Assembly: GCA_963826115.1 (NCBI GenBank)
Contig: CAWGVS010000006.1
Span: 64,001 to 128,000, forward strand
Direction: 5' to 3'
Source: an uncultured Candidatus Rokubacteria bacterium
GTDB lineage: Bacteria; Methylomirabilota; Methylomirabilia; Rokubacteriales; DASRDR01
DNA: 64,000 nt
The notes below the pieces were generated by a model. That model was not told where the DNA came from, made no database searches, and was given only the letters and a program-made list of their open reading frames with translations. The position numbers and the translations under genes were made by a program. Positions 44,676-56,575 of the stretch are shown piece by piece. Position 1 is the stretch's first letter, and each line of letters opens with the position of its first letter.

Positions 44676-46307
44676 GTGAGCGTCGGCGCGGTCGAGTCGT
44701 TCACCGCCGAGGAGCGAGCCCGGCTGGCGCCCCACTTCACGAGCGTCGACGGCCCTGTCTTCGCCCTCGTCAACCTGCCCGAGGTCGTGAAGGGCGCGCT
44801 CTTCGCCCGCTACTCGCGCTCCCCGAAGTCGCTTCGCCGGCTGTTCCTGGACGAGTTCGTCGGCGCCGAGGCGCTGGCGGACGCTGCGCCGGCCGGCGGC
44901 CCGATCGGCACCGAGCGCGCGGAGCGGCTGTTCGAGCGCGTCTTCGTCGAGTACGGCGACGACTCCGTCGCCCAGCTGGGGGGCGTCCACCTCGCGTGCG
45001 AGGGCGTCTCCAACGTGCTCACGAAGCTCCTCGAGTGGGGCCGGCTGATGGCCTACCTCGAGCAGTCGACCCGCTACGTCCCGTACGCGGACCGGCCCGG
45101 CGGGCGCTGGCGCTACCACGTGCCGGCGGAGGTGCGCGACGCGCCCCTCGTGCGCCAGTACGAGGCGACCCTCGACCTCATGTTCGAGACGTACGCCGAA
45201 TGGCTCGAGCGGGTGCAGGAGCACTTCCGGGCGGCCCATCCGCGACAGGCGTCGGACTCCGAGGCCGTGTACCGGAACACGATCCGCGCGAAGGCGCTCG
45301 ACACGCTACGCGGCCTCCTGCCGGCGGCGACACGGTCGAACGTCGGGCTCTACGGCACGGGGCAGGCGTACGAGGCGCTCCTCCTGCGGCTCCGGGCGTC
45401 CCCGCTCGCCGAGGCGCGGGCGTGCGCCGACCTCATGCTGACCGAGCTGCGCAAGGTGATCCCGGCGTTCCTCCGACGCGTGGACGCGCCCGACCGGGGT
45501 GGCGCGTGGTCGGCCTACCTCGCCGCCACGCGGGAGGCCACGGAGAGGGTGACGGCGCAGACCGTGGGGGAGACCGCCGCCCTCTCCCGCCCGGAGGTGG
45601 TCCTCACGGACTTCGATCCCGAGGGCGAGGTCAAGGTCGTCGCCGCCGCGCTCTACGCGGCCTCGGGGCTGCCCGACGACCAGCTCCTCGCGCGCGTGCG
45701 GCGGATGAGCGCCGGGGAGCGAGCGGCGATCCTCGCCGCGTACGTGGGCGAGCGCGGGAACCGCCGCCACAAGCCGGGGCGCGCCCTCGAGCGAACGAGC
45801 TACCGGTTCGACGTCCTGACGGACTACGGCGCCTTCCGCGACCTCCAGCGGCACCGGCTCCTGTCTCTCGAGTGGCAGCCCCTCGGCCCCCGACATGGCT
45901 ACGCGATGCCGGACGCGGTCGAGGCGGCGGGCGCCGGCGCCGACTGGCGGCGGGTGATGGACGCGTCCGCGGAGCTCCACGACGCGCTCTCGGCCGGGGG
46001 CCTCGCCGCCGTCGCGCCGTACGCGGTGTGCATGGCCTACCGGATCCGCTTCTACATGGAGATGAACGCCCGCGAGGCGATGCACGTGCTCGAGTTGCGG
46101 ACGGCGCCCCAGGGCCATCCCGCGTACCGGCGCGTCTGCCAGGCGATGCATCGCCTCATCGCCGAGGACGCCGGGCACCGCGGGCTCGCCGCGGCCATGC
46201 GCTTCGTCGACCACTCGGCCGTGGAGCTGGAGCGCCTCGAGGCTGAGCGGCGGACCGACGCCCGCCGGCGCACCCTGTCGGAGGCCGGCCCCGCCGAGCG
46301 CCCCTGA
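44676..46307 (+). CDS. thyX: FAD-dependent thymidylate synthase, long two-domain form
   Basis: GALFARYSRS, YGDDSVAQL, EQSTRYV, RDLQRHR and LELRTAPQGH motifs. Confidence 0.85.
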   Translation: MSVGAVESFTAEERARLAPHFTSVDGPVFALVNLPEVVKGALFARYSRSPKSLRRLFLDEFVGAEALADAAPAGGPIGTERAERLFERVFVEYGDDSVAQLGGVHLACEGVSNVLTKLLEWGRLMAYLEQSTRYVPYADRPGGRWRYHVPAEVRDAPLVRQYEATLDLMFETYAEWLERVQEHFRAAHPRQASDSEAVYRNTIRAKALDTLRGLLPAATRSNVGLYGTGQAYEALLLRLRASPLAEARACADLMLTELRKVIPAFLRRVDAPDRGGAWSAYLAATREATERVTAQTVGETAALSRPEVVLTDFDPEGEVKVVAAALYAASGLPDDQLLARVRRMSAGERAAILAAYVGERGNRRHKPGRALERTSYRFDVLTDYGAFRDLQRHRLLSLEWQPLGPRHGYAMPDAVEAAGAGADWRRVMDASAELHDALSAGGLAAVAPYAVCMAYRIRFYMEMNAREAMHVLELRTAPQGHPAYRRVCQAMHRLIAEDAGHRGLAAAMRFVDHSAVELERLEAERRTDARRRTLSEAGPAERP

Positions 46308-46322
46308 CGCGCGGCGCGCCGG

Positions 46323-47225
46323 TCAGCCGCGGGCGCCGCGCGGCGCCGGGTCCGCGTCGGCCTCGACGAGCGCGGCGAGCGCGGCGAGCCCCCCGAGATC
46401 CCGCGGCCGCCTCAGCCGGCGCACGGGCACCGTGGCCGCGAGCCGGGCGCAGCGCGCGAGGAAGCTCGACGTGCCGAGCTGCTCGAGCGCCGGCGCGATG
46501 TAGGCGTGCTGGAGCAGCTCGAAGACCGCGGTGTGCCCGCCGAGGGGCTCGAGGCCCAGCGGCTCGCCGTTGGCAAGGACGTAGAGGCGTCGGAGAGCCT
46601 GCGGGGCCATCGCCCGGATGCTGGGGACCTTCGCTCGCTTCTCCTCGTTCGCGTAGAGGCGGGGCAGCGCCTCGGGGTTCTCGCCGAGGGCGGACACCGC
46701 ATCGGGCCAGAGCTTGAGCTGGGGGAATCCCGGCACGACGGTCGGCCCGGCCGGCGCGTCGAGGTCCACGGCGAGCACGTCGTCCGCCACGACGGCGCCG
46801 CCGCGCGCGTGGAGCGCCGCCGTCGTGGTCGACTTCCCGTCGCCGGAATGGCCGAGGAACGCGACCGCGCCGCCGGCGACGGTCGCCGCGCTCGCGTGAA
46901 GAACGACGAGGCCGCGCTGGTGAAGGAGCACGCCAAGCGCCGGTCCGAGCAGGTAGAGGCGCAGGAGCTCCGGGGGCACCCCCGGCCGCGGGTCGACCGT
47001 GATCTCCTCGCCGCGGCGCAGGAGGATCGTGCCGACCTCGGGCCACGCGAGGCGGGCCTCGCCGTCCGTCACGCTGAGCAAGTGCCCGCCGGCCGGCGGC
47101 GGGCTCGGGACGTCCGGGACCCTGCCCAGGCGCACCACGACGTCCGGCGGGGCCGGGCCCGGGACGAGCTCCGGCAGTTCGAGCGCCGAGTGGATACCCA
47201 GGCCGTACGCGACGTACGTGAACAC
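46323..47225 (-). CDS. HPr-kinase-like RiPP kinase (PadeK/ThcoK-like)
   Basis: LHAS, Walker A GHSGDGKST and ADD motifs; last gene of the lasso cluster. Confidence 0.85.
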   Translation of the reverse strand: MFTYVAYGLGIHSALELPELVPGPAPPDVVVRLGRVPDVPSPPPAGGHLLSVTDGEARLAWPEVGTILLRRGEEITVDPRPGVPPELLRLYLLGPALGVLLHQRGLVVLHASAATVAGGAVAFLGHSGDGKSTTTAALHARGGAVVADDVLAVDLDAPAGPTVVPGFPQLKLWPDAVSALGENPEALPRLYANEEKRAKVPSIRAMAPQALRRLYVLANGEPLGLEPLGGHTAVFELLQHAYIAPALEQLGTSSFLARCARLAATVPVRRLRRPRDLGGLAALAALVEADADPAPRGARG

Positions 47226-47269
47226 GGGCGGCGCGCCTGGCGCCGGGGGGTCCTTCCTGGAGCCAGCCG

Positions 47270-47800
47270 TCAGGCGGCGGGCTCGGTCTCGCGCAGCGCC
47301 AGCTCGACCCGGAGGGCGGCGACGTCGCCGCGCAGCGCCCTGAGCTCGCGCTCGAGGGCTTCGAGCCGCGTCGCCTGGGCCTGCACGAGGCCGTGGAGGC
47401 CCTGGATGGCCGCGAGGGCGACCCCGGCCGCGTCGAGGGGGAAGATGTGGCGGTCGTCGACCCCCAGGCCGAAGGCCGCGGCGAAGTCCTGGGCCATCGG
47501 TCCCAGGTGACGGACCGGCTCACCCTTGTAGGACCAGCGCTCGATCGGCAGCGCAACGACCGCCGCCAGGACCGAGTGCCGATCGACGGCTTCGAATTCT
47601 TCTTTGGCGTTCCGGTCGCTTTGTACTGTGCCCGATTGGCCAAGGGTGAGAGCGGAGAGGCGCCCGTGCTCGGTGAGCCGAGGGCTTCGGTACGGCTTCC
47701 GGGCGCTGGTGGACGCCGGCGTCGCGGGCTCGGCGTCCGTCTGACCATTCGTGACGATCACGTCGCTCGTCGGTGCCTGGGTCGCGATGCGCTGGTCCAT
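47270..47800 (-). CDS. Lasso precursor-Peptidase S74 fusion A3 (176 aa)
   Basis: Leader YRSPRLTEHGRLSALTL, core GQSGTVQSD, SDRNAK, WSYK, HLGPMAQDF, coiled coil; GGAGG RBS. Confidence 0.88.
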   Translation of the reverse strand: MDQRIATQAPTSDVIVTNGQTDAEPATPASTSARKPYRSPRLTEHGRLSALTLGQSGTVQSDRNAKEEFEAVDRHSVLAAVVALPIERWSYKGEPVRHLGPMAQDFAAAFGLGVDDRHIFPLDAAGVALAAIQGLHGLVQAQATRLEALERELRALRGDVAALRVELALRETEPAA

Positions 47801-47868
47801 GGCGTCCCTCCCGAAGTCCGAAGGATCAGGCCGGCCACGCCACCCTGCGCCGGCATGGAGCGCTCACA

Positions 47869-47884
47869 AGCGGGTGCCGTGCCC
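47869..47884 (-). promoter_or_regulatory. Sigma54-like -24/-12 element upstream of A3
   Basis: Minus strand GGGCACG-GCAC-CCGCT (GG-N10-GC; CC instead of TT). Confidence 0.35.
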
Positions 47885-47931
47885 CTCTCCATCTTGCGCC
47901 GAGTGGAACGTCCGCTTCAAGGGTCGGAGCG

Positions 47932-48459
47932 TCAGGGGACGGGCTCGCTCTCACGCAGGGCGAGTTCGACCCGGAGGGCGGCGGCGTCTCCGCGTAACTC
48001 CGCCAACTGGCGCTCGAGGGCTTCGAGCCGCGTCGCCTGGGCCCGCACGAGGCCGTGGAGGCCCTGGATGGCCGCGAGGGCGACCCCGGCCGCGTCGAGG
48101 GGGAAGATGTGGCGGTCGTCGACCCCCAGGCCGAAGGCCGCGGCGAAGTCCTGGGCCATCGGTCCCAGGTGACGGACCGGCTCACCCTTGTAGGACCAGC
48201 GCTCGATCGGCAATGCGGCGACCGCCGCCAGGACTGAATGACGATCGACGGCTTCGAATTCTTCTTTGGCGTTCCGGTCGCTCGGTGGGCTGGATTGGCC
48301 AAGGGTGAGACCGGACAGGCGCCCGTGCTCGGTGAGCCGGGGGCGCGTGTACGGCTTCCGGGCGCTGGTGGACGTCTCCGTCGCGGGCCCGGCCTCCGTC
48401 TGACCCTGGGCGACACTCGGGTCGCTCGTCGGTGTCTGGCTCGGGATGCTCGAGTCCAT
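47932..48459 (-). CDS. Lasso precursor-Peptidase S74 fusion A2 (175 aa)
   Basis: Leader YTRPRLTEHGRLSGLTL, core GQSSPPSD, SDRNAK, HLGPMAQDF; AGGAGG RBS before ATG 48459. Confidence 0.88.
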   Translation of the reverse strand: MDSSIPSQTPTSDPSVAQGQTEAGPATETSTSARKPYTRPRLTEHGRLSGLTLGQSSPPSDRNAKEEFEAVDRHSVLAAVAALPIERWSYKGEPVRHLGPMAQDFAAAFGLGVDDRHIFPLDAAGVALAAIQGLHGLVRAQATRLEALERQLAELRGDAAALRVELALRESEPVP

Positions 48460-48522
48460 GGCGTCCCTCCTGAAGACCGAAGGATCGGGCCGACCATGCC
48501 GGTCGCAGGCATGGAGTGTTGA

Positions 48523-48538
48523 AGCGGACGTCGTGCCG
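48523..48538 (-). promoter_or_regulatory. Sigma54-like -24/-12 element upstream of A2
   Basis: Minus strand CGGCACG-ACGT-CCGCT (GG-N10-GC; CC instead of TT). Confidence 0.35.
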
Positions 48539-48586
48539 AGTCCATCTTGCGCCGAGTCGAACGTCCGCTTCAAGGGATTCGGGCCG

Positions 48587-49081
48587 TCAGGCGACGGGCT
48601 CCCTCTCACGCAGGGCGAGCTCGACCCGGAGGGTGGCCGCGTCTCGGCGTAGCGCTGCCAGCTCGCGCTCGAGGGCTTCGAGCCGCGTCGCCTGGGCTTG
48701 CACGAGGCCGTGGAGGCCCTGGATGGCCGCGAGCGCGACTCCGGCCGCGTCGACCGGGAAGATGTGACGGTCGTCCGCGCCGAGGCCGAAGGCCGCGGCG
48801 AAGTCCTGCGCCATCGGCCCGAGATGGCGAGCCGCCTCGCCGCGATAGGACCACCGCTCGATCGGCAGGTGGAGAAGTCCGGCCAGCACCTCGCGGGGGT
48901 CGACCGGCACGAAGCCCTCCTTCAGGGCTCGATCGCTGGTGATGGTCGACGGGCCCGCGGTGGCCGTCGCGATCGTCCCGTGCTCGACCAGGCGGGGCGT
49001 TGCGTAGGGTTTGCGAGCTCCCGCCGGTTGCGGCGGCGGGGGCGTCGCGGGCTGGGGCGTCTCGGCCGGCTTCCGCTCCAT
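48587..49081 (-). CDS. Lasso precursor-Peptidase S74 fusion A1 (164 aa)
   Basis: Hidden at the end of listed ORF 48587..50680; AAGGAG RBS; leader YATPRLVEHGTIATATA, core GPSTITSD, SDRALK, HLGPMAQDF. Confidence 0.88.
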   Translation of the reverse strand: MERKPAETPQPATPPPPQPAGARKPYATPRLVEHGTIATATAGPSTITSDRALKEGFVPVDPREVLAGLLHLPIERWSYRGEAARHLGPMAQDFAAAFGLGADDRHIFPVDAAGVALAAIQGLHGLVQAQATRLEALERELAALRRDAATLRVELALREREPVA

Positions 49082-49137
49082 GGGGTCAGCTCCTTTTCGG
49101 ACGGCGGGTGAACGACGAGCGGGGATGCGCGCGGACC

Positions 49138-51021
49138 TCACGGCGTCGCGCGGCGAAGCCACAGGGTCAGGACGGCGAGCCGCCACACGGCGCGCACCTC
49201 CCGCATCCCGTCCCGTGTCGCGTACGCGCGATAAGTGCGCCGGACGGTCTCCGACGGCACGTACGGGTCGAGCGTGCGCGCGGCCTCGCGCATGAGGACG
49301 TCGAGCCGTTCGCGGCCGTACACGGTGAGCGCCGAGCGGAGCATCAGGTCGATCGGGGCCTTCCCGCGCCGGTCCCGGATCTCGGCAGGCAAGAGCGTGG
49401 CGAGGGCGTGCCGCGCGACGATGCGCGTCAGGCCGCGCCGGATCTTCTGGGACGCCGGGAGCGCGAGGCAGAACTCCATGACCCGGCGGTCGAGGAAGGG
49501 GTCCCGCGAGTCGAGCCCCACCGCGTCGCCGGCGGCGGCCAGCGTTTCCAGGGTGGCCGCCATCCGGGGCGCGGTCAGCTGGCGCCAGTGATCGTAGCGC
49601 GCCCACTCGACGCCGGTCGGCGGCGGCCCGGGCTCCGCCGCCCTGAGCCGCTCGTCGAGCCGGATCCGCCGCGCGAAGTCGGTCCGGATCAGCGGCGGCC
49701 CCAGGACGCCCTGGCGGCGCAGGCGTCGCCAGGCGCGGCGGGCCGGCCGGGGCGCCACCGAGGCCGCGACCATCCGCAGGACGCGCCAGGCCGATCGCTC
49801 GAACGACCGCGAGAACCGGCGCGCCTCTCGGGCGAGCGCCAGCCACCGGCCCTGGCGGGCGAGGTCGCCCAGGTAACCCGTTCCGTGGGAAACGACGACG
49901 TCGCCCCCGGTTCCCTCCAGGAACGTGCGCATCCCGTCGGCGCTCGCCGCGCGGTAGAGCGCCCAGTGCATGTAGTACCCGGGCGCCCTGAACACCTCGT
50001 CCCCCGGCCCGGCCTCGCGCTCGAAATCCCCGAGCGGGTCGAGCACGTCCCCGCGGACGTGGCGCGGCGCGAGCCCGCCGCCCGCCTCGACGGCCGCGAC
50101 GTAGGCGCCCTCGTCGCAGGAGGGGATCGTCGGGAAGCGCGCCGTGTAGGTCGTGAGCGGACCCGTGCCCATCGCCGCTTGGACCGCGCGAGCGACGCAC
50201 ACCACCGCCGAGGAGTCGAGCCCGCCGCTCAGCGCGGCGGCGACGGGGCCCGCGCTGCGGAGGCGGCAGCGCACGGCGTCGGTGAACAGCTCGCGGAACC
50301 GCTCGGCGTACTCGGCGTCCGACCCGAGCCGCAACTCTCGCATCGGGTCGAGCTGCCAGTAGGGTCGCGGCGCGGCGGCGCCGGCCGGGGTCACGATCAG
50401 GGAATGCCCCGCCGGCAACCGGGCGATGTCCTCGTGGAGCGTGGCGGTCCGATTGTCGAGCCCCGGGACGAGGTAGGCGGCGATTCGGAGCTCGTCGATC
50501 CGCCGCGGGACGTCGGGGATCGCGAACAGGGCGGCCGTCCCCGAGGCGGCGGCGAACACGCGCGGGCCGGCATGATAGTAGAGGGGCTTCACGCCCGCCG
50601 GATCGCGCGCGCAGAAGAGCACCCGGCGCCGGGCGTCCCACACGACGAACGCGAAATCGCCCAGGAGCCGCGCCGCGCACGCCTCGCCCCAGCGCTCCCA
50701 GGCGCGGAGGATGAGCGCCCCGTCGCCGAGGTCGTCGGCGCGCCGCGGGTCGAGGTCGAGGGCCGCGGCGAGCTCGGCGCGGTTGTCGAGCCGCGCGTCG
50801 GCGGTGACGACCACCTCGCCGGTGTCGCTCGCCCGGGGCAGCTTCTCCTCGAGGCCCGTGGCGCCGGCCCGGAGCGCCCGGTGGCCGAGGCCGACCGGGC
50901 CGTCCAGCCAGACGCCGACGGCGTCGGCGGCGCGGGGCGCGAGACGCTCGGTGACCCGGTCGAGCGCCAGTCGGTCGAGCGGCGCGCCGTCGAGCCGCCG
51001 GATCGCGGCGATGCCGCTCAT
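49138..51021 (-). CDS. Lasso macrolactam synthetase (asparagine synthetase-like C protein)
   Basis: N-terminus MSG lacks the glutaminase Cys; ARDPAGVKPLYY, LSGGLDSS and DPFLDRRV motifs; ATGA overlap with B2. Confidence 0.9.
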   Translation of the reverse strand: MSGIAAIRRLDGAPLDRLALDRVTERLAPRAADAVGVWLDGPVGLGHRALRAGATGLEEKLPRASDTGEVVVTADARLDNRAELAAALDLDPRRADDLGDGALILRAWERWGEACAARLLGDFAFVVWDARRRVLFCARDPAGVKPLYYHAGPRVFAAASGTAALFAIPDVPRRIDELRIAAYLVPGLDNRTATLHEDIARLPAGHSLIVTPAGAAAPRPYWQLDPMRELRLGSDAEYAERFRELFTDAVRCRLRSAGPVAAALSGGLDSSAVVCVARAVQAAMGTGPLTTYTARFPTIPSCDEGAYVAAVEAGGGLAPRHVRGDVLDPLGDFEREAGPGDEVFRAPGYYMHWALYRAASADGMRTFLEGTGGDVVVSHGTGYLGDLARQGRWLALAREARRFSRSFERSAWRVLRMVAASVAPRPARRAWRRLRRQGVLGPPLIRTDFARRIRLDERLRAAEPGPPPTGVEWARYDHWRQLTAPRMAATLETLAAAGDAVGLDSRDPFLDRRVMEFCLALPASQKIRRGLTRIVARHALATLLPAEIRDRRGKAPIDLMLRSALTVYGRERLDVLMREAARTLDPYVPSETVRRTYRAYATRDGMREVRAVWRLAVLTLWLRRATP

Positions 51022-51452
51022 CGCGGCGTGCCCAGCGCCGACAGGCTCACGTAGCGGGTCTCGACCGGGCCGCCGATCACGACGCGCCCGTCGTGCTCGA
51101 GCCAGGCGTGCGCCTCGAAGCCGCGACCTCCGCCACCGGCCACCCCCAGCTTGAGCTCGCTCGGGTGCCCGTGACGGCCGAGCAGGGCGTGCGCCGCCAG
51201 CGCCCGGACGAGGCACGTCGTCCGCGGCACAAGGCAGTCGGCGGCGCCCACGGCCCAGACGATCCGTTCGACCGACGGTGTCCGGCCCGTCCGTATGCCG
51301 GGGTCATTCGCGAGCGCGCCCACCGCGCCGTGGACGCGCCGGAACGGGAGCACCCACAGTCCGACGCGGACGCCCGCCAGGAGCCCCGCGGCGGCAAGGA
51401 CCAGGCGTTGCTCGGCGGACGGCAGCGCGAGGAATCTAGCGACGCGCCTCAC
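51018..51452 (-). CDS. Lasso B2 leader peptidase (transglutaminase-like)
   Basis: TCLVRALA, LGV and AHAWLE Cys-His catalytic motifs. Confidence 0.92.
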   Translation of the reverse strand: MRRVARFLALPSAEQRLVLAAAGLLAGVRVGLWVLPFRRVHGAVGALANDPGIRTGRTPSVERIVWAVGAADCLVPRTTCLVRALAAHALLGRHGHPSELKLGVAGGGGRGFEAHAWLEHDGRVVIGGPVETRYVSLSALGTPR

Positions 51453-51735
51453 CGGAGACCTCGAGAAGCCCGGCCTCGGCCATGGTCCGGAGGAGGGCGA
51501 GGAGGTCCGCCTCGCAGCGCGCGGAGTCGACCTCGTACTCCCGGAGCAGCGCGTCCCGGACGTCCCGCACGCGCCGCGGCGTCGCGATGAGCTCCCAGAT
51601 GCGGGCTCCGATCGGGTCCAGCCCGTAGTAGACGCCGGCCTTCAGCTGGACGATCGCGACCTCGTCCTCGAGGCGGCAGGAGGCCTGCTCCTTCGAGGCC
51701 ACGACGACCGTGTCGAGCGAGATGGCGCCGTCCAC
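51436..51735 (-). CDS. Lasso B1 / PqqD-family RiPP recognition element
   Basis: GVYYGLDPIGARIWELI...EYEV...ADLLALL...GLL; about 99 aa from GTG 51735. Confidence 0.92.
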   Translation of the reverse strand: MDGAISLDTVVVASKEQASCRLEDEVAIVQLKAGVYYGLDPIGARIWELIATPRRVRDVRDALLREYEVDSARCEADLLALLRTMAEAGLLEVSGEARR

Positions 51736-51778
51736 GGTGTCAGGCGCTCCCCGGCGCGCCGTCGCTCGGCACGGCCCG

Positions 51779-51807
51779 ATCGTATCCCGGTCCCCCGCGC
51801 GCGACAA
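51779..51807 (-). promoter_or_regulatory. Sigma70-like promoter of the lasso operon
   Basis: Minus strand TTGTCG-N17-TACGAT, about 45 nt upstream of B1. Confidence 0.5.
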
Positions 51808-51819
51808 TCGCGCGCGGCG

Positions 51820-53022
51820 CTAGGCCGGGCCGCGGAAGTCGTCCTTCGCGGCCCGGAGCGCGGCCGGGTCGGCCAGGAGGTCGAGGGCGGTCAGCGCGAG
51901 AGCCTTGGCGCCGGCCACCATGCCGGCTCGCGCGAGCGGCGTCGCGTTGTGCTCCGCGAACTCGCGCGAATGGCCCGGTACCCCGTCGGGCGCCGTACGG
52001 ATGTAGGGATGGATCGTGGGGAGGGCCTGGCTCACGTTTCCGGCGTCCGTCGAGCCGTACCCCGCCTGGCCGTCGTCGGGGTCCACGGGAAAGTCGATGC
52101 GCGCGAGGTTTCGCTCGAAGAGATCCGCCATCGGCGCGTTCGGCTTGAGCGGGTCGTGGATCCGCGGATCCACCGTCACCTGGACGCGGCAGCCCGTCGC
52201 CAGGGCCGCGCCCTCCGCGGCCGCCTCGAACCGTCGCCGGATCTCCTGGAGGTACGTCCTGTCGAGCGAGCGGAGGTAGAAGTCCGCGGCGGTGTACTCC
52301 GGGATGATGTTGGGCTGCTGCCCGCCCACCGTGATCACCCCGTGGATGCGCGCGTCGGGGCGGAGCTGCTGCCGCATCGCGTCCAGCGCGTTGAAGAGCC
52401 CGATGACGGCGTTGAGCGCGTTGACCCCGCGCCACGGCCACGACGCCGCGTGCGCCGCGGTGCCGAAGTACTCCACCTTCGCCTTCATGAGCCCGAGGGT
52501 CGGGCGCCAGACCTGGGTGCCGCAGCGCGGGTGGATCATCATGGCCGCGTCGACGTCCTGGAACACGCCCGCGTCCATGAGCTTGACCTTGCCCGCGCCG
52601 CCCTCCTCCGCGGGCGTGCCGACCACCGTGATCCGGCCCGGGTAGGGGAAGTGCCCCCCGGCGAGGCTCGCGGCGGCGACGGCGAGCGCGGCGCCCGCGC
52701 CGGCGCCGGCGGTCGCGATGACGTTATGGCCGCAGGCGTGGCCGATGCCGGGAAGCGCGTCGTACTCGGCCATCACGGCGATCGTCGGGCCGTCGGCCGT
52801 GCCGGGCACCTCGGCGCGGAAGGCGGTCGGCAGGCCGCCCACCCCGCGCTCGACGCGGCAACCCCGGCGCTCGAGGAACTCCGTCAGCCAGCGCGCCGCC
52901 TGCTCCTCCTTGAACGCGAGCTCGGGGTGCGCGTGGATCTGGAGCGCGAGTCGCCAGAGATCCTCGGCCATTCCGTCGACGGCGTCGGTCACGCGGCTCT
53001 TGAGACGGTCCAGGTCGCTCAT
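51820..53022 (-). CDS. M20 amidohydrolase (ACY1L2/AbgB-like)
   Basis: HPELAFKE, EYDALPGIGHACGHN, GTPAEEG and GSTDAGNVS motifs. Confidence 0.9.
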   Translation of the reverse strand: MSDLDRLKSRVTDAVDGMAEDLWRLALQIHAHPELAFKEEQAARWLTEFLERRGCRVERGVGGLPTAFRAEVPGTADGPTIAVMAEYDALPGIGHACGHNVIATAGAGAGAALAVAAASLAGGHFPYPGRITVVGTPAEEGGAGKVKLMDAGVFQDVDAAMMIHPRCGTQVWRPTLGLMKAKVEYFGTAAHAASWPWRGVNALNAVIGLFNALDAMRQQLRPDARIHGVITVGGQQPNIIPEYTAADFYLRSLDRTYLQEIRRRFEAAAEGAALATGCRVQVTVDPRIHDPLKPNAPMADLFERNLARIDFPVDPDDGQAGYGSTDAGNVSQALPTIHPYIRTAPDGVPGHSREFAEHNATPLARAGMVAGAKALALTALDLLADPAALRAAKDDFRGPA

Positions 53023-53118
53023 GGCGGGCCTCCACGGAGGGATCGGGCGAGTGGGGCGCGACTCGGCGCGGGCCGCAGGCTCCCACGCCCGTCCCGCGAC
53101 TGTCAAGGCGACGTCCCG

Positions 53119-54249
53119 TCACCGGCCGGCGGCGCGCCGCGCCTCGGCCCGGCGGCCCGCGGCGATCCGGTCGTCCAGCGATGGGTGCGTGGCGAAGAGG
53201 AGCTCCCGGAGTCGCCCGGGCCGGCGCTCGGCGAGGTTGAGGCGGCCGAGCCGCTCCATGGCGGCGACGAAGGCCGCGGGCGCCCCGCTCACGTCGAGCG
53301 CGATCCGGTCGGCCTCGCGCTCGAGGCGCCGCGACCACGCGGCGATCGGCGGCGTGGCGAGGAGCCCCAGCACGCTGACCACCAGGGCCAGGAACGGCAG
53401 GCCCGCGGGGTCCGCGGGGCCGGCGAGGCCGAGCGACGCGACGCCCATGCGGAGAGCCCGGTCGGCGACCCAGAGGGTCGCGACCAGGAGGGCGCCGTGG
53501 AGCAGGAGACCCTGCGTCATGTGGCTCCGCGCGTGGTGTCCGAGCTCGTGGGCGAGGACGACCTCCACCTCCTCGACGGGGAACTCGCGGAGGAGCGTGT
53601 CGCTCACGAGGATGCGCCGCGTGCGTCCGAGTCCCACCACCGCCGCATTCGCGACGCGGCCCTTGCGCGAGAAGTCGGCAACCAAGACCTCCGCGGCCCG
53701 GACGCCCATCCGCGCGGCGAGCGCGAGGATCCGGGCGCGGAGCTCCCGATCCTCGAGCGGCGTCAGCCGGTAGAAGAGGGGCACGAGCCACACGGGCACC
53801 ACCAAGGTCAGGAGCACGAGGCCCGCCGCCAGCACGCCGCTCGCCCAGAGCCACCACCGCTCCGGGCTCCACTGGAGGAGGCCGTACACCACCTGGGCGG
53901 CGAGGAGCCCGAGCGCGCCGCCGATCGCGAGCGCCTTCGCGCGGTCGCCCAGCCAGCCGGCGAAACGCTGCGTCAGGAGTCCCGCCCGGCGCGGGAGGAC
54001 GAAGCCGCCGACGACGTCGAGCGGAAAGGTCAGGAGCGCCTGCGTGACGCCGAGCGCCAGCGTCATCGTCGCGACGACCGCCGCGGCGGGGAGCCACCCG
54101 TCGAGCCCCGCGGCCAGGCGCGTGGCGGCGCCGCTCCACGCCCACCACACGAGGAGCACGGCGCCGAGCCCGAGGTCGACCAGCGAGAGCGCGAACTGAC
54201 GCCGGTGATACTCGCGGGCCCGGGTGGCCTCCGCGTCGCGCGCGTCCAT
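53119..54249 (-). CDS. M48 Ste24-like membrane metallopeptidase
   Basis: NAAVVG, SDTLL, HELGH, EREAD and THP motifs. Confidence 0.9.
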   Translation of the reverse strand: MDARDAEATRAREYHRRQFALSLVDLGLGAVLLVWWAWSGAATRLAAGLDGWLPAAAVVATMTLALGVTQALLTFPLDVVGGFVLPRRAGLLTQRFAGWLGDRAKALAIGGALGLLAAQVVYGLLQWSPERWWLWASGVLAAGLVLLTLVVPVWLVPLFYRLTPLEDRELRARILALAARMGVRAAEVLVADFSRKGRVANAAVVGLGRTRRILVSDTLLREFPVEEVEVVLAHELGHHARSHMTQGLLLHGALLVATLWVADRALRMGVASLGLAGPADPAGLPFLALVVSVLGLLATPPIAAWSRRLEREADRIALDVSGAPAAFVAAMERLGRLNLAERRPGRLRELLFATHPSLDDRIAAGRRAEARRAAGR

Positions 54250-54310
54250 CGCTTCACAAGCGTAGCGCGGACGCCCGCGCGCGGCCACCCGCGCGCGCCG
54301 CGGTGGTACG

Positions 54311-55552
54311 ATGACTCGCGTGACGAAGCCGCCTCCGGCCGAGCGCCGCGCGCCCGACGTGACCGACGCGCTGGCGCCGGGGGCCGTCGGCGCGGTCCGG
54401 GTGCGCCCGAACACCCGCGTGCTCGGTCTCCTGGCGCTCGGCCACCTCGTGGTCGACATGAACCAGGGGTCGATCGCGCCGCTCTTGCCCTTCTTCAAGT
54501 CGGCCTTCGGGCTGTCCTACGCGGCGTCCGGGGTCATCCTGCTCGTGGGGAACATGACCTCGTCGATCGTCCAGCCGGTGTTCGGCTACCTCGCGGACCG
54601 GGCGCCGCGGCGTTGGCTCCTGCCCTGGGCCGTGCTCCTGTCGGCGGTCGGGGTCGCCGTGGCCGGGGTGGCGCCGTCGTACTGGGGCCTGCTGGCGGTG
54701 GTCGTCGTGTCGGGGCTCGGCGTCGCCGCCTATCACCCCGAGGGCTACCGCACGGCGAACCAGGTCGCGGGCGACCGGAAGGCCACGGGACTGTCGCTCT
54801 TCTCGATCGGCGGGAACATCGGCATCGCCCTCGGGCCGCCGGCGATCGCCTTCCTCGTCCCGCGGTTCGGCCTGCCCGGGACCCTCGGCCTCCTCGGGCC
54901 CGGCCTCGTGGTCGCGGCGCTGATCGCCGCGATCCTGCCGGCGCTCATCGCGGCGCCCGCCAAGAGCGCGCCGGCGCGCACGGCGGGGGAGCGCGGCCGC
55001 GACATGCCGGGGGCCATGGCGCTCCTCATCGGGGTCGTGACCGTGCGGTCGTGGACGCAGCTCGGCCTGATCGCCTACGTGCCCTTCCTCTACGTCGACC
55101 TCCTCGGCAAGGACCCGCGCGTCGCCGGGCCGCTCCTCTTCCTCTTCCTCGGCGCCGGCGCCGTGGGCACGCTCACCGGCGGCCCGATCGCCGACCGCTG
55201 GGGCCCGCGGCGCTATCTCGTCGGGAGCTTCCTCCTGTCGACGCCGCTGATCGCGCTCTTCCTCTGGTGGCCGGGCGGCTGGGTGGCCGCGATCACGCTC
55301 GCGGCGGCCGGCTTCGTCCTGGTGTCGTCGTTCTCGGTGACCGTCGCGCTCGGTCAGGCCTATCTCCCGCGGCGTCTCGGCATGGCGGCCGGCCTGATCG
55401 TGGGGCTGGCCATCGGCACGGGCGGGCTCGGCGTCGCGCTGCTCGGCTGGGTCGCGGACCACTGGGGCCTCTACGCCGCGCTCCACCTGATCGCCGCGCT
55501 CCCGCTCGCCGGCCTCGCCGTCGCGCTCTGTCTGCCCGAGCCCCGGGCCTAA
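54311..55552 (+). CDS. MFS transporter (Fsr-like)
   Basis: GHLVVD, QPVFGYLADR, AYHPEG and FSIGGNIG motifs. Confidence 0.88.
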   Translation: MTRVTKPPPAERRAPDVTDALAPGAVGAVRVRPNTRVLGLLALGHLVVDMNQGSIAPLLPFFKSAFGLSYAASGVILLVGNMTSSIVQPVFGYLADRAPRRWLLPWAVLLSAVGVAVAGVAPSYWGLLAVVVVSGLGVAAYHPEGYRTANQVAGDRKATGLSLFSIGGNIGIALGPPAIAFLVPRFGLPGTLGLLGPGLVVAALIAAILPALIAAPAKSAPARTAGERGRDMPGAMALLIGVVTVRSWTQLGLIAYVPFLYVDLLGKDPRVAGPLLFLFLGAGAVGTLTGGPIADRWGPRRYLVGSFLLSTPLIALFLWWPGGWVAAITLAAAGFVLVSSFSVTVALGQAYLPRRLGMAAGLIVGLAIGTGGLGVALLGWVADHWGLYAALHLIAALPLAGLAVALCLPEPRA

Positions 55553-55663
55553 TCCTGGTATCATGAGCCTTCGTGCCGGAGGGCCGCGGGGCGCGGTAGT
55601 GCGCTCCCGTCGGGGACGCCGCCGGCGAGGCGGGCCCCGCGCCCACTAGCTGAGGAGAAGGGC

Positions 55664-56575
55664 ATGTTCGCGTCCGTCGAGGAAGTCCAGGAGCGGTTCC
55701 AGGCGAGCCGGTACATCGCGAGCCGACGCATCGCCACCGTCGTGTACCTGGCGAGCCGGATGAACCGTCCGGTGCTCGTCGAGGGCCCGGCCGGCGTCGG
55801 GAAGACCGAGCTCGCCAAGGTGCTGGCCGAGACCACGAAGCGGCCCCTGGTGCGCCTCCAGTGCTACGAGGGCCTGGACGAGGCGAAGGCGCTCTACGAG
55901 TGGAAGTACGCCAAGCAGCTCCTCTACACGCAGATGCTGCGGGAGCGGATCGGCGAGCTGATCTCGGACGCGCCCACCTTGCCGGAGGCCGTCGACCGCA
56001 TCGCGCGCCAGGAGGACGCCTTCTTCTCTCGGCGCTTCCTCTCGCCGCGCCCGCTCCTCGGCGCGATCCTGGCCGAGGAGCCGGTCGTGCTCCTCATCGA
56101 CGAGATCGACAAGGCGGAGGTGGAGTTCGAGGCCTTCCTGCTGGAGGTGCTCTCCGACTGGCAGGTGTCGGTGCCGGAGCTCGGCACGATCAAGGCGCGC
56201 CACGTGCCCCTGGTCGTCCTGACCTCCAACAACGCGCGGGAGCTGACCGACGGGCTGAAGCGCCGGTGCCTGCATCTGTTCATCGACTTCCCGAGCGTCG
56301 GCGAGGAGCTGGCGATCATCCGGCTCAAGGTGCCGGAGGCGTCCGAGCAGCTCGCCCGGCAGGTGGTGAGCGCCGTCCAGAAGATCCGGGCGCTCGAGCT
56401 CCGGAAGGCGCCGTCGATCTCGGAGAGCCTCGACTGGGCGCGCGCGCTGGTGATCCTGAATGCCGACCGCCTGGACGCGGCGCTCGTCGAGTCGACGCTC
56501 ACCCTCGTGGTCAAGCACGAGCGCGACCTCGAGCGCGTCAAGGCGAGCCTCGACAAGGTCCTCGCCGACTCGTAG
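55664..56575 (+). CDS. MoxR-family AAA+ ATPase (CoxD-like)
   Basis: EGPAGVGKTELA, RLQCYEGLD, LLIDEIDK and LKRRC motifs. Confidence 0.92.
   Translation: MFASVEEVQERFQASRYIASRRIATVVYLASRMNRPVLVEGPAGVGKTELAKVLAETTKRPLVRLQCYEGLDEAKALYEWKYAKQLLYTQMLRERIGELISDAPTLPEAVDRIARQEDAFFSRRFLSPRPLLGAILAEEPVVLLIDEIDKAEVEFEAFLLEVLSDWQVSVPELGTIKARHVPLVVLTSNNARELTDGLKRRCLHLFIDFPSVGEELAIIRLKVPEASEQLARQVVSAVQKIRALELRKAPSISESLDWARALVILNADRLDAALVESTLTLVVKHERDLERVKASLDKVLADS

What the first reader, a model, noticed from the sequence alone, without database searches (positions are those of the whole stretch)
48920..48955. Ring-closing Asp coincides with the S74 autocleavage motif: the scissile bond would lie inside the macrolactam
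Seen: the cores read G1PSTITSD8 (A1, 48955-48932), G1QSSPPSD8 (A2, 48300-48277) and G1QSGTVQSD9 (A3, 47641-47615). In all three the first acidic residue is at position 8 or 9, and it is the D of SDRALK/SDRNAK, with Ser and Lys(+5) intact. Established: lasso rings close Gly1 onto Asp/Glu 7-9, and S74 domains cleave just N-terminal to that Ser. Inference, three options: (a) cyclisation locks the autoprotease; (b) autocleavage opens the ring, giving an isopeptide-branched product or an unthreading switch; (c) autocleavage frees a 6-7-mer (GPSTIT, GQSSPP, GQSGTVQ), possibly cyclised head-to-tail through the new C-terminus or the acyl-serine intermediate. Any of these would be unusual RiPP chemistry.
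Basis: partly seen in the sequence, partly recalled or inferred. Interest (0 to 1): 0.88.

Follow-up and report, generated by a model that had tools for sequence, protein, structure and literature searches.

The report
Lasso precursors fused to self-cleaving domain
Three tandem genes in a lasso-peptide gene cluster each join a lasso-type leader and a very short variable peptide to a phage-type self-cleaving domain, an arrangement that appears undescribed and leaves open which small or protein-bound product is made.

Summary
On the minus strand lie B1, B2, a lasso cyclase, three tandem precursors (A1-A3) and an HPr-kinase-like gene. Each precursor is a lasso leader (YxxPxLxxHG-5 residues-T-x), then 6-7 variable residues, then a complete Peptidase_S74 domain starting SDRxxK.

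- S74 domains do cut just before that Ser, according to passages of two papers.
- The Asp is a general S74 residue: 153 of 176 S74 domains, mostly not lasso-linked.
- Leader-to-Ser spacing is not held to ring size. The Asp falls at position 7-9 in 81 of 120 close relatives and at 10-13 in 39.
- Chloroflexi relatives carry a canonical G1-D8 ring and tail ahead of the S74 Ser.
- Ser and Lys are invariant, and the variable segment lies exactly between the two cleavage sites.

Best reading (0.4): S74 is a self-removing follower domain that sets the core's C-terminus, so the product comes from the freed 6-7-mer.

Main rival (0.35): the cyclase closes onto the S74 Asp. In its favour, 14 of 15 cyclase-linked precursors have an acid at 7-9, six of them only through that Asp.

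My five literature searches aimed at this fusion found no description of it. Only mass spectrometry can settle the question.

The parts
51436..51807 (-). B1: PqqD-type leader-binding protein (RRE), 123 aa
   Evidence: PF05402 E 1.7e-17. NF033536 lasso PqqD 59.8 bits, below its cut-off of 80.
51018..51452 (-). B2: transglutaminase-like leader peptidase, 144 aa
   Evidence: PF13471 E 1e-22. NF033537 lasso_biosyn_B2 88.4 bits against a cut-off of 33.
49138..51216 (-). C: lasso macrolactam cyclase. The ORF as listed runs from GTG 51216. The likely start is the ATG at 51021, which overlaps the B2 stop.
   Evidence: NF033535 607.7 bits against a cut-off of 525, with the model starting at residue 66 of the 692-aa ORF. 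PF00733 E 4e-46. The orthologue in L171 is 626 aa.
48587..49081 (-). Precursor A1, 164 aa: leader 49081-48956, core GPSTIT 48955-48938, S74 domain from Ser49 (48937)
   Evidence: RBS-like AAGGAG lies upstream.
48920..48937 (-). A1 S74 dyad motif SDRALK: Ser49 nucleophile, Asp50, Lys54. The scissile bond would be T48|S49.
   Evidence: The Pfam match starts at residue 49. S, D, R and K have zero entropy in 120 of 120 sequences. Residues 49-51 and 53-60 lie in the predicted inter-chain interface.
47932..48459 (-). Precursor A2, 175 aa: core GQSSPP 48300-48283, SDRNAK 48282-48265
47270..47800 (-). Precursor A3, 176 aa: core GQSGTVQ 47641-47621, SDRNAK 47620-47603
   Evidence: NF033521 22.7 bits against a cut-off of 19.
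46323..47225 (-). HPr-kinase-like P-loop protein (K), 300 aa, directly after A3
   Evidence: The family matches are weak: PF07475 E 4.5e-4, 20 bits against a cut-off of 33, and TIGR04352 23 bits against 200. The gene sits in the same place after the S74 precursors in L001-L005, L013 and L060.
47268..48884 (-). Tandem triplication of the precursor cassette, period 655-662 nt
   Evidence: Direct repeat families D1 (300 nt, 93% and 83% identity) and D2 (215 nt, 84%).

Best explanation
A1-A3 are lasso-type RiPP precursors in which the usual free C-terminus is replaced by a complete, trimer-forming Peptidase_S74 (intramolecular chaperone auto-processing) domain. That domain acts as a self-removing follower.

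SHOWN by sequence:
- a lasso leader with Thr(-2);
- a hypervariable 6-7-residue segment;
- then an extremely conserved S74 domain whose Ser/Lys dyad starts right after that segment.

INFERRED mechanism:
- B1 binds the leader and B2 cuts after Thr-x.
- The S74 part trimerises and its Ser, activated by Lys+5, cuts the X|Ser bond.
- The core is therefore the 6-7-mer bracketed by the two cleavage sites: GPSTIT, GQSSPP and GQSGTVQ.
- On this reading the Asp of SDRxxK is there because S74 needs it. My inference is that it caps the short helix that carries the Lys. It is not there as a ring acceptor.

The freed cores have no acidic side chain. The cyclase would therefore have only the new alpha-carboxylate to activate, which would give a head-to-tail 6-7-mer. 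Otherwise the peptides stay linear and may be modified by the kinase-like protein.

My split within this reading:
- head-to-tail closure by the cyclase, about 0.2;
- closure through the acyl-Ser intermediate, about 0.05;
- linear or otherwise modified product, about 0.15.
For: (1) Variability peaks exactly between the two cleavage sites.
- Entropy is 2.0-3.3 bits, with indels, at A1 residues 43-48.
- It is 0.07 bits at Thr41 and 0.0 at S49, D50, R51 and K54.
- It is mostly below 0.3 bits through the S74 domain, across 120 sequences.

(2) In the Chloroflexi/Thermomicrobiales subfamily the segment before the Ser is a canonical lasso core.
- It reads GGGGxxPD (G1-D8) plus a 9-12-residue tail.
- This holds in L060 and in 6 of the 6 proteins returned.
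- There, cleavage before Ser would give an ordinary 18-20-mer.

(3) SDRxxK is generic to S74. Among 176 domains in 150 representatives, S occurs in 168, D in 153, R in 158 and K in 173.

(4) Spacing is not tied to ring size.
- The pre-Ser segment is 5-11 residues long in the 120 close relatives.
- Thirty of the 120 have no acid at 7-9.
- Precursors on single metagenome contigs, as listed, put the Asp at 7, 8 and 9, or at 9 and 11-12. I read these.

(5) P0123 carries five tandem [leader - core - SDxxxK - about 20 residues] modules before one full S74 domain. The dyad is kept in every module.

(6) Two S74-less paralogues end where the S74 cut would fall.
- A 48-aa gene in cluster L171 has the same ribosome-binding context as its S74-fused neighbour and ends GGSLTDA-stop.
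- An orphan 60-aa peptide in the window's own genome ends AAPSTVTKTTP-stop.

(7) Trimer model of A1 residues 30-164.
- Score 0.88, best of 3 controls 0.12.
- The mark was reached by 20 of 30 proteins solved as pairs and by 1 of 23 solved as single chains.
- Runs agree in at least 83% of contacts and the partner's pLDDT is at least 80.
- Because S74 trimers have been solved, the pass may reflect that likeness.

(8) In MyRF the ICA domain has almost no contacts with the upstream stalk, so cleavage need not depend on a beta-helix passenger (PMC8326128 passage).
Against: - No lasso cyclase is known to activate an alpha-carboxylate. That statement is recalled, not tested here.
- All three window cores fit the canonical rule if the S74 Asp counts: Gly1 with Asp at 8, 8 and 9.
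- In close relatives the Asp is never below position 7, and its most common position is 8.
- Beside a cyclase, 14 of 15 precursors have an acid at 7-9, six of them only through the S74 Asp. In loci with no cyclase hit the count is 2 of 9 rows. That table lists L006 twice, and L001 sits at a contig start, so its cyclase may lie off the contig.
- The cyclase is intact and well conserved, so it must act on something.
- The two S74-less paralogues may be deletion remnants rather than working genes.
- Autocleavage has not been shown for any member of this family.
Confidence: 0.4

Rival explanations
1. The cyclase closes Gly1 onto the Asp of SDRxxK. The acceptor Asp sits in a constant, recognisable motif and a flexible Pro/Ser/Gly-rich loop of variable length is closed onto it. 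S74 then either cannot cut, giving a trimeric protein capped with rings, or it cuts inside the ring, leaving the peptide hanging by its N-terminus from the Asp side chain of the S74 fragment.
For: - The window cores are G1...D8, G1...D8 and G1...D9.
- The Asp is at 7-9 in 81 of 120 relatives and never below 7.
- The first residue is Gly or Ala in 89 of 120.
- 14 of 15 cyclase-linked precursors have an acid at 7-9, and 6 of them have it only through this Asp. The Planctomycetota loci without a cyclase hit (L005, L006, L007, L014, L024) have none.
- This is the cyclase's native chemistry.
- Lasso enzymes tolerate proteins fused to the core's C-terminus: astexin-1 and pandonodin (PMC13352647 passage).
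Against: - The Asp is explained by S74 alone: 153 of 176 domains.
- 39 of 120 relatives have it at 10-13, and 30 of those have no acid at 7-9.
- A single cluster would need ring sizes of 7, 8 and 9, or 9 and 11-12. Changing ring size by one residue usually lowers yield sharply (PMC13352647 passage).
- The first residue is V, D, T, Q, P or I in 31 of 120.
- Residues 49-51 lie in the predicted inter-chain interface.
- An invariant Ser/Lys dyad is hard to explain if the ring blocks cleavage, and a branched protein-peptide product has no evident use.
- The S74-less paralogues lack this Asp.
Confidence: 0.35
2. No small product is made in this clade. Either the cluster is drifting towards loss, or the S74 trimer with its variable N-terminal tips is itself the functional entity, without cleavage or cyclisation.
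For: - The distribution is patchy: 8 of 251 genomes of the phylum, and 7 of 15 in the window's genus.
- One genus member (L172) has the cyclase reduced to a 50-residue fragment, a precursor without the leader motif, and the kinase-like gene in pieces.
- No exporter gene belongs to the cluster. The flanking genes are conserved chromosomal neighbours at 74-98% identity in related genomes.
Against: - In the window all seven genes are open and score well against their families.
- The leader recognition motif, Thr(-2), the dyad and the S74 domain are under strong constraint across 120 sequences.
- There are 108 different cores among the 120, which is the pattern of a product-coding region.
Confidence: 0.1
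3. The kinase-like protein phosphorylates the invariant Ser of SDRxxK. That Ser occupies the place of the C-terminal Ser that related lasso kinases modify. Phosphorylation would mask the nucleophile, gate autocleavage, and decide whether the cyclase or the protease acts first. This can combine with either reading above.
For: - The K gene follows the S74 precursors in L001-L005, L013, L060 and the window.
- A PsmN-like nucleotidyltransferase (PF14907) accompanies it in L005, L013, L059 and L060.
- Known lasso kinases modify the strictly conserved C-terminal Ser of the linear precursor (PMC9266682 passages).
- Here the only invariant Ser next to the core is the S74 Ser.
Against: - Similarity of K to HPr kinases is weak and below the curated cut-offs.
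- Homology to the characterised lasso kinases was not tested.
- Known kinases act on a terminal Ser, not an internal one.
- Every core also holds other Ser or Thr residues, with Ser at core position 3 in 53 of 108 unique cores.
Confidence: 0.1

Closest known systems
Class II lasso peptide clusters with split B1/B2 and an HPr-kinase-like tailoring gene (paeninodin / pseudomycoidin type)
   Same: - B1 (PqqD), B2 (transglutaminase-like) and a cyclase scoring above the NF033535 cut-off.
- A leader with YxxP and Thr(-2).
- Several tandem precursors.
- A kinase-like gene downstream, and in distant relatives a PsmN-like nucleotidyltransferase as well.
   Different: - The precursors are 164-176 aa rather than about 40-50 aa.
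- The core before the S74 Ser is 6-7 residues long, with no acidic residue and no tail.
- The precursors do not end in Ser.
- A folded, self-cleaving domain follows the core.
Peptidase S74 / C-terminal intramolecular chaperone domain of phage tailspikes and fibres (K1F endosialidase, T5 pb1) and the ICA domain of MyRF
   Same: - The Pfam match starts at the catalytic Ser.
- S-x4-K dyad.
- Predicted trimer with a C-terminal coiled coil, and the cleavage-site strand in contact with a neighbouring chain.
- The best PDB profile hit is MyRF ICA, aligned over SD..K, but it is weak at E 0.051.
   Different: The passenger upstream is not a trimeric beta-helix or fibre. It is a 42-53-residue RiPP leader plus a 6-7-residue variable peptide. 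The gene sits in a RiPP operon, not in a phage.
Engineered lasso-protein fusions (astexin-1, pandonodin with proteins on the C-terminus)
   Same: They show that lasso enzymes can process a core carrying a large C-terminal protein (PMC13352647 passage).
   Different: Those fusions are man-made. They keep a full ring, loop and tail ahead of a linker, and the fused protein does not cut itself off.
Multi-core head-to-tail cyclic RiPPs such as cyanobactins and orbitides (recalled, not tested here)
   Same: A short Pro/Gly/Ser-rich core is bracketed by an N-terminal and a C-terminal cleavage site. The relative P0123 repeats the whole module five times.
   Different: There is no PatG-, POP- or AEP-type macrocyclase. 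The C-terminal cut would be made by the precursor's own domain, and the only candidate ligase is a lasso cyclase.

Membership tests
Lasso peptide biosynthetic cluster | RRE/PqqD-type B1, transglutaminase-type B2 protease, and asparagine-synthetase-like cyclase | tested here: met
   PF05402, PF13471 and PF00733. NF033537 scores 88 against a cut-off of 33, and NF033535 scores 607.7 against 525.
Lasso peptide biosynthetic cluster | Precursor leader with a YxxP motif and Thr at -2 | tested here: met
   Present in A1-A3. Thr(-2) is present in 119 of 120 relatives. NF033521 is above its cut-off only for A3.
Lasso peptide biosynthetic cluster | Core with Gly/Ala/Ser/Cys at position 1 and an Asp/Glu at position 7-9 that forms the isopeptide | tested here: inconclusive
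   The window has Gly1 in 3 of 3 precursors, but the only acid at 7-9 is the S74 Asp. Among relatives, 68 of 108 unique cores meet both rules if that Asp is counted.
Lasso peptide biosynthetic cluster | Loop and tail of several residues after the ring acid, threaded through the ring and held by bulky residues | tested here: not met
   Nothing but the S74 domain follows the Asp. After a cut at X|Ser the core is 6-7 residues with no tail. Chloroflexi relatives do have a 9-12-residue tail.
Lasso peptide biosynthetic cluster | Isopeptide bond and threaded topology in the product | not testable with these tools
   Needs MS/MS and NMR, or protease and heat stability tests.
Peptidase_S74 / CIMCD / ICA domain | Pfam PF13884 match above the gathering score | tested here: met
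   35.4, 40.0 and 37.2 bits against a cut-off of 22.
Peptidase_S74 / CIMCD / ICA domain | Catalytic Ser with Lys five residues later | tested here: met
   SDRALK and SDRNAK in the window. Ser and Lys are invariant in 120 of 120 relatives. Their equivalence to S587/K592 of MyRF and S911/K916 of endoNF rests on PMC8326128 passages and on the alignment.
Peptidase_S74 / CIMCD / ICA domain | Homotrimer with a C-terminal coiled coil | tested here: met
   This rests on a model only. Score 0.88 against a best control of 0.12. The mark was reached by 20 of 30 solved pairs and 1 of 23 single chains, with contacts agreeing at 83% or more and pLDDT at 80 or more. The result may reflect likeness to solved S74 trimers. 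The model has a helix at residues 109-160.
Peptidase_S74 / CIMCD / ICA domain | Sits at the C-terminus of a trimeric beta-helix or fibre passenger whose folding it assists | tested here: not met
   The upstream part is a 48-60-residue leader plus core, with low-confidence or no secondary structure in the model.
Peptidase_S74 / CIMCD / ICA domain | Autocleavage at X|Ser | not testable with these tools
   Needs expression of wild type against S49A and K54A mutants.
HPr-kinase-like lasso tailoring kinases (PadeK/ThcoK/PsmK type) | Kinase homologous to HPr kinase, with the catalytic His-Lys-Asp-Asp set | tested here: inconclusive
   Only weak matches below cut-off: PF07475 at 20 bits against 33, and TIGR04352 at 23 against 200. 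The catalytic set was not checked.
HPr-kinase-like lasso tailoring kinases (PadeK/ThcoK/PsmK type) | Precursor ends in a conserved Ser that is phosphorylated | tested here: not met
   A1-A3 end in ...PVA...PVP and ...PAA. The feature itself is taken from PMC9266682 passages.

The most novel reading that the evidence does not exclude
The lasso machinery and a phage-derived self-cleaving domain cooperate in a macrocyclisation not yet described. There are two versions.

(i) S74 frees the core's alpha-carboxylate, or holds it as an acyl-Ser ester. The Gly1 amine exposed by B2 is then joined to it, giving head-to-tail cyclic 5-11-mers. This would be a new route to small cyclic peptides, made with a lasso cyclase.

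(ii) The cyclase closes loops of variable size (7-13 residues) onto the constant S74 Asp, and the domain's own protease then cuts inside that ring.

In either version a folded autoprotease would be a built-in part of a RiPP precursor.
Probability: 0.3. Interest if true: 0.92.

Novelty: new variant of a known kind. Interest (0 to 1): 0.8.

Why it matters
RiPP precursors are normally a leader plus a core, sometimes with a short follower. A folded, trimerising, self-cleaving domain of phage tail-fibre origin as the follower of a lasso precursor is absent from the papers I could search.

The family is not a one-off.
- All 120 listed relatives share the architecture.
- It occurs in Methylomirabilota/Rokubacteria, Chloroflexota, an Acidimicrobiia MAG and Planctomycetota MAGs.
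- Annotation pipelines label these proteins 'hypothetical' or 'tail fiber domain-containing', so genome mining for lasso peptides probably misses them.

If the follower reading is right, S74 offers a natural, protease-free way to release a RiPP core with a defined C-terminus. That would be a useful tool.

If the short acid-free cores of the window's clade are really cyclised, a lasso cyclase is doing chemistry it is not known to do.

Either way the question is directly testable with four or five genes in E. coli and a mass spectrometer.

Tried and rejected
Steps that led nowhere:
- phmmer of A1 against PDB sequences gave no hit at E <= 0.01. A 21-sequence profile gave only a weak best hit, MyRF ICA at E 0.051, plus coiled-coil noise and TbiA leader peptides at E 0.5-0.8.
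- The AlphaFold2 monomer model of A1 was mediocre (mean pLDDT 72.6, pTM 0.43). Foldseek of it against the PDB found nothing (best E 4.7). A monomer model of an intertwined trimer is a poor probe, so I draw no conclusion from this.
- A search for short stand-alone relatives of the A3 leader plus core (residues 18-62, lengths 'shorter') found no candidate.
Only 1 of 91 S74 ORFs in 80 loci carried the leader motif.
- The flanking M20 peptidase, M48 peptidase, MFS transporter, ThyX-like and MoxR-like genes are conserved chromosomal neighbours in related genomes at 74-98% identity. I dropped them as cluster members.
- Scans of 46000-52200 found no sigma-70-like promoter and one terminator-like site. 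That site is on the + strand, opposite to the genes.

Sequencing runs:
- No run held half of the sampled words of 47270-49081.
- When laid, one RNA-library run (X20) had a single 181-nt contig on 47401-47581 with 5 differences. This may come from a relative or from carried-over DNA, so I do not count it as evidence of expression.

Literature searches:
- 'lasso peptide' with 'Peptidase_S74', with 'intramolecular chaperone' and with 'endosialidase' each returned 0 papers.
- 'RiPP / precursor peptide / S74 / autoproteolytic' returned 13 papers, of which 10 were listed; none of those 10 was relevant by title or abstract.
- 'lasso peptide' with 'Rokubacteria' returned 2 papers, each with a single mention (listing only).
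- A 2026 review of interlocked peptides (PMC13352647) contains none of the words 'autoproteoly', 'self-cleav' or 'follower'.
- These searches cover only the held library. Supplementary files were not consulted.

Not done:
- The table lists L006 twice.
- The by-contig grouping of precursors was read by eye, not computed.
Full report
WHAT IS THERE

On the minus strand of the window lies a compact operon-like row:
- B1 (PqqD-type, 51807-51436);
- B2 (transglutaminase-type, 51452-51018);
- a lasso cyclase (ORF 51216-49138, with a likely start at the ATG at 51021 overlapping the B2 stop);
- three tandem precursor genes, A1 (49081-48587), A2 (48459-47932) and A3 (47800-47270);
- an HPr-kinase-like P-loop gene (47225-46323).

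The cyclase scores 607.7 bits against NF033535 (cut-off 525). B2 scores 88 bits against NF033537 (cut-off 33). The three precursor cassettes are a tandem triplication with a period of 655-662 nt. Each has a Shine-Dalgarno-like sequence.

THE OBSERVATION

Translation gives 164-, 175- and 176-residue proteins. Each begins with a lasso-type leader of the form ...KPYxxPRLxEHG-5 residues-T-x. NF033521 scores 22.7 bits for A3, above its cut-off of 19; 16.9 bits for A1; and nothing for A2.

After Thr(-2)-x come GPSTIT, GQSSPP or GQSGTVQ, and then SDRALK or SDRNAK. Pfam Peptidase_S74 matches all three above its gathering score, and the match starts exactly at that Ser. The first acidic residue after the leader is indeed the S74 Asp, at position 8, 8 and 9.

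WHAT IS KNOWN ABOUT THE S74 CUT

In passages of PMC8326128:
- Mass spectrometry places the MyRF cut between P586 and S587.
- S587A and K592A abolish cleavage. These residues correspond to S911 and K916 of the K1F endosialidase.
- The strand bearing the site (the 'cable') runs through a ring of strands of the neighbouring subunit.
- The ICA domain barely touches the upstream stalk.

In passages of PMC4690869:
- T5 pb1 is cut at T1263|S1264.
- The Ser leaves with the chaperone domain. The phi29 appendage is a less certain exception.

THE FAMILY

A search with A1 found 1229 proteins of 90-287 residues at E <= 0.001. The best 120 are listed, 3 of them the window's own.

All 120 have leader motif, variable segment and SDxxxK, with Thr(-2) in 119.

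The segment before the Ser is distributed as follows:

| Residues before Ser | Sequences | Position of the S74 Asp |
|---|---|---|
| 5 | 18 | 7 |
| 6 | 34 | 8 |
| 7 | 29 | 9 |
| 8 | 21 | 10 |
| 9 | 9 | 11 |
| 10 | 6 | 12 |
| 11 | 3 | 13 |

So the S74 Asp is at 7-9 in 81 sequences and at 10-13 in 39. Of those 39, 9 have another acid at 7-9 and 30 do not.

The first residue is G in 65, A in 24, and V, D, T, Q, P or I in 31.

There are 108 different cores. All contain Ser or Thr, with Ser at position 3 in 53 of them. 71% of their residues are P, S, G, A or T.

Entropy is 2.0-3.3 bits, with indels, in the core. It is 0.07 bits at Thr(-2), 0.0 at S, D, R and K of the motif, and mostly below 0.3 bits through the S74 domain. 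The variable region is bracketed exactly by the B2 site and the S74 site.

THE ASP IS A GENERAL S74 RESIDUE

A scan of 1.84 billion representatives found 15,327 S74 relatives. Most carry the domain at the C-terminus of long proteins. In 176 domains of the best 150 representatives, the motif reads S in 168, D in 153 (Ser instead in 17), R in 158 and K in 173. Its presence in A1-A3 therefore says nothing by itself about ring closure.

In the monomer model a short helix (residues 51-54) follows Ser-Asp. I infer that the Asp caps that helix, which carries the Lys.

MORE DISTANT FUSED PRECURSORS

Among 79 genome loci, 16 of 101 S74 ORFs carry the leader motif.

In Chloroflexia/Thermomicrobiales the segment before the Ser reads GGGGxxPD plus 9-12 further residues. 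That is a canonical G1-D8 ring with a tail, in L060 and in 6 of the 6 proteins returned. There the S74 Asp is at position 20-22, and cleavage before Ser would give an ordinary 18-20-mer. In that subfamily S74 is plainly a follower domain.

P0123 has five tandem modules of [leader - core - SDxxxK - about 20 residues] before a single complete S74 domain, and the dyad is kept in each module.

GENE CONTEXT

B1, B2, cyclase and the kinase-like gene accompany the precursors in:
- the Methylomirabilota/Rokubacteria loci L002-L004;
- the Chloroflexota locus L013;
- the Chloroflexia locus L060.

L171 has B1, B2 and the cyclase; no kinase hit lies on the 9 kb fetched, and the precursors run to the end of that stretch. 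L059 (Acidimicrobiia) has the cyclase and B2.

The kinase-like gene always follows the precursors. A PsmN-like nucleotidyltransferase is added in L005, L013, L059 and L060.

A Phycisphaerales locus (L005) has B1, B2, precursor, K and the nucleotidyltransferase but no cyclase. Three Planctomycetota genomes have no NF033535 match above the cut-off, the best being 231 bits, which is in the range of ordinary asparagine synthases.

Within the window's phylum the fused precursors occur in 8 of 251 genomes, 7 of them in the window's own genus of 15. One genus member has a decayed cluster (L172).

EVIDENCE THAT CUTS THE OTHER WAY

For precursors beside a cyclase, 14 of 15 have an acid at position 7-9. 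Eight have an internal one and six have it only through the S74 Asp. In loci without a cyclase hit the count is 2 of 9 rows, with L006 listed twice and L001 at a contig start.

The Asp is never below position 7 in the 120 relatives, and 7 is the smallest known lasso ring. Lasso enzymes accept proteins fused to the core's C-terminus (PMC13352647 passage). So ring closure on the S74 Asp remains a serious possibility for the short-core clade, to which the window belongs.

EVIDENCE FOR RELEASE

- The Ser/Lys dyad is invariant. That would be pointless if the ring blocked cleavage.
- One quarter of the clade (30 of 120) cannot form a 7-9 ring on any acid.
- Precursors on single contigs would need rings of 7, 8 and 9, or 9 and 11-12, from one cyclase (read). 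The review states that a one-residue change of ring size usually lowers yield markedly.
- Two S74-less paralogues end just where S74 would cut. One is a 48-aa gene in cluster L171 with the same ribosome-binding context as its S74-fused neighbour, ending GGSLTDA-stop. The other is an orphan 60-aa peptide elsewhere in the window's genome, ending AAPSTVTKTTP-stop.
- A trimer model of A1 residues 30-164 scored 0.88 against a best control of 0.12. The mark was reached by 20 of 30 solved pairs and 1 of 23 single chains; contacts agreed at 83% or more and pLDDT was 80 or more. The pass may reflect likeness to solved S74 trimers. In the model, residues 49-51 and 53-60 touch a neighbouring chain, while the core residues 43-48 are not in the confident interface.

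VERDICT ON MECHANISM

At the level of the family, I read S74 as a self-removing follower that defines the C-terminus of the core.

For the window's three precursors this leaves acid-free 6-7-mers. I put 0.4 on the product deriving from these freed peptides. They may be closed head-to-tail by the cyclase acting on the new alpha-carboxylate, closed through the acyl-Ser intermediate, or left linear and modified by the kinase-like protein.

I put 0.35 on closure onto the S74 Asp, either with later cleavage inside the ring or without cleavage.

Smaller weights go to a cluster without a small product and to kinase gating, which can combine with either main reading.

None of the chemical steps is shown. 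All are inferred from sequence, context and what is known of the two parent families.

NOVELTY

Five searches of the held library aimed at a lasso or RiPP precursor fused to an S74 domain found no paper that describes one. A 2026 review lacks the relevant words. Public names for these proteins are 'hypothetical protein', 'endosialidase-like protein', 'Chaperone of endosialidase' or 'tail fiber domain-containing protein'.

I rate it a new variant of a known kind. If the short cores are cyclised, by either route, the chemistry would be new.

Noticed in passing
own genome, outside the window: G000:C6:220008-220190 (+) = L084 10008-10190: An orphan 60-aa peptide with the same leader type, an 11-residue acid-free end (AAPSTVTKTTP) and a stop. 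It has no S74 domain. It matches the NF033534 'rhodolasso' model weakly (E 5.8e-5, below cut-off). Its neighbours are a FabH-like KAS III with a long N-terminal extension, a 480-aa protein with no family hit, and an enoyl-CoA hydratase. No lasso genes lie nearby.
   Followed up: partly
L171 1664-1810 (-), in a related genome of the same genus: A 48-aa S74-less paralogue lies between the cyclase and the first S74-fused precursor. It has the same ribosome-binding context and ends GGSLTDA-stop. It may be a working short precursor or a deletion remnant.
   Followed up: partly
protein P0123 (382 aa, metagenomic; no locus held): A multi-core precursor with five tandem [leader - core - SDxxxK - about 20 residues] modules followed by one complete S74 domain.
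   Followed up: partly
protein P0185 (173 aa): An S74-fused precursor with a second leader-like stretch (KAWETPTVTSYG...) after the coiled coil at its C-terminus. With P0144, it has only 3-4 residues between the predicted leader end and the Ser.
   Followed up: no
L005 8893-12617 (Phycisphaerales MAG); also L006, L007, L014, L024: Planctomycetota versions. L005 has B1, B2, an S74 precursor, the kinase-like gene (in two overlapping frames, possibly an assembly frameshift) and a PsmN-like nucleotidyltransferase, but no cyclase. The other loci hold precursors with no lasso genes within reach. Their cores are 12-14 residues with no acid at 7-9.
   Followed up: partly
L172 6326-8671 (related genome, same genus): A decayed copy of the cluster. 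The cyclase is reduced to a 50-residue match, the precursor has lost its leader motif, and the kinase-like gene is in three pieces.
   Followed up: no
window 47657-48317: A DNA contig of run X1 (448 nt, no mismatches) joins 47657 to 48317, which would leave one precursor cassette fewer. This is either copy-number variation in the population or an assembly collapse of the repeat.
   Followed up: no
proteins P0124, P0125, P0127, P0132 (1701-4928 aa): Giant proteins with three separate S74-like stretches each, among the best hits to A3 in the representative library.
   Followed up: no
window 44676-46307 (+) and 51820-56575: The ThyX-like, M20 peptidase, M48 peptidase, MFS and MoxR-like genes flank the cluster in the same order in related genomes at 74-98% identity. 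The cluster therefore sits at a fixed chromosomal site in this genus.
   Followed up: partly
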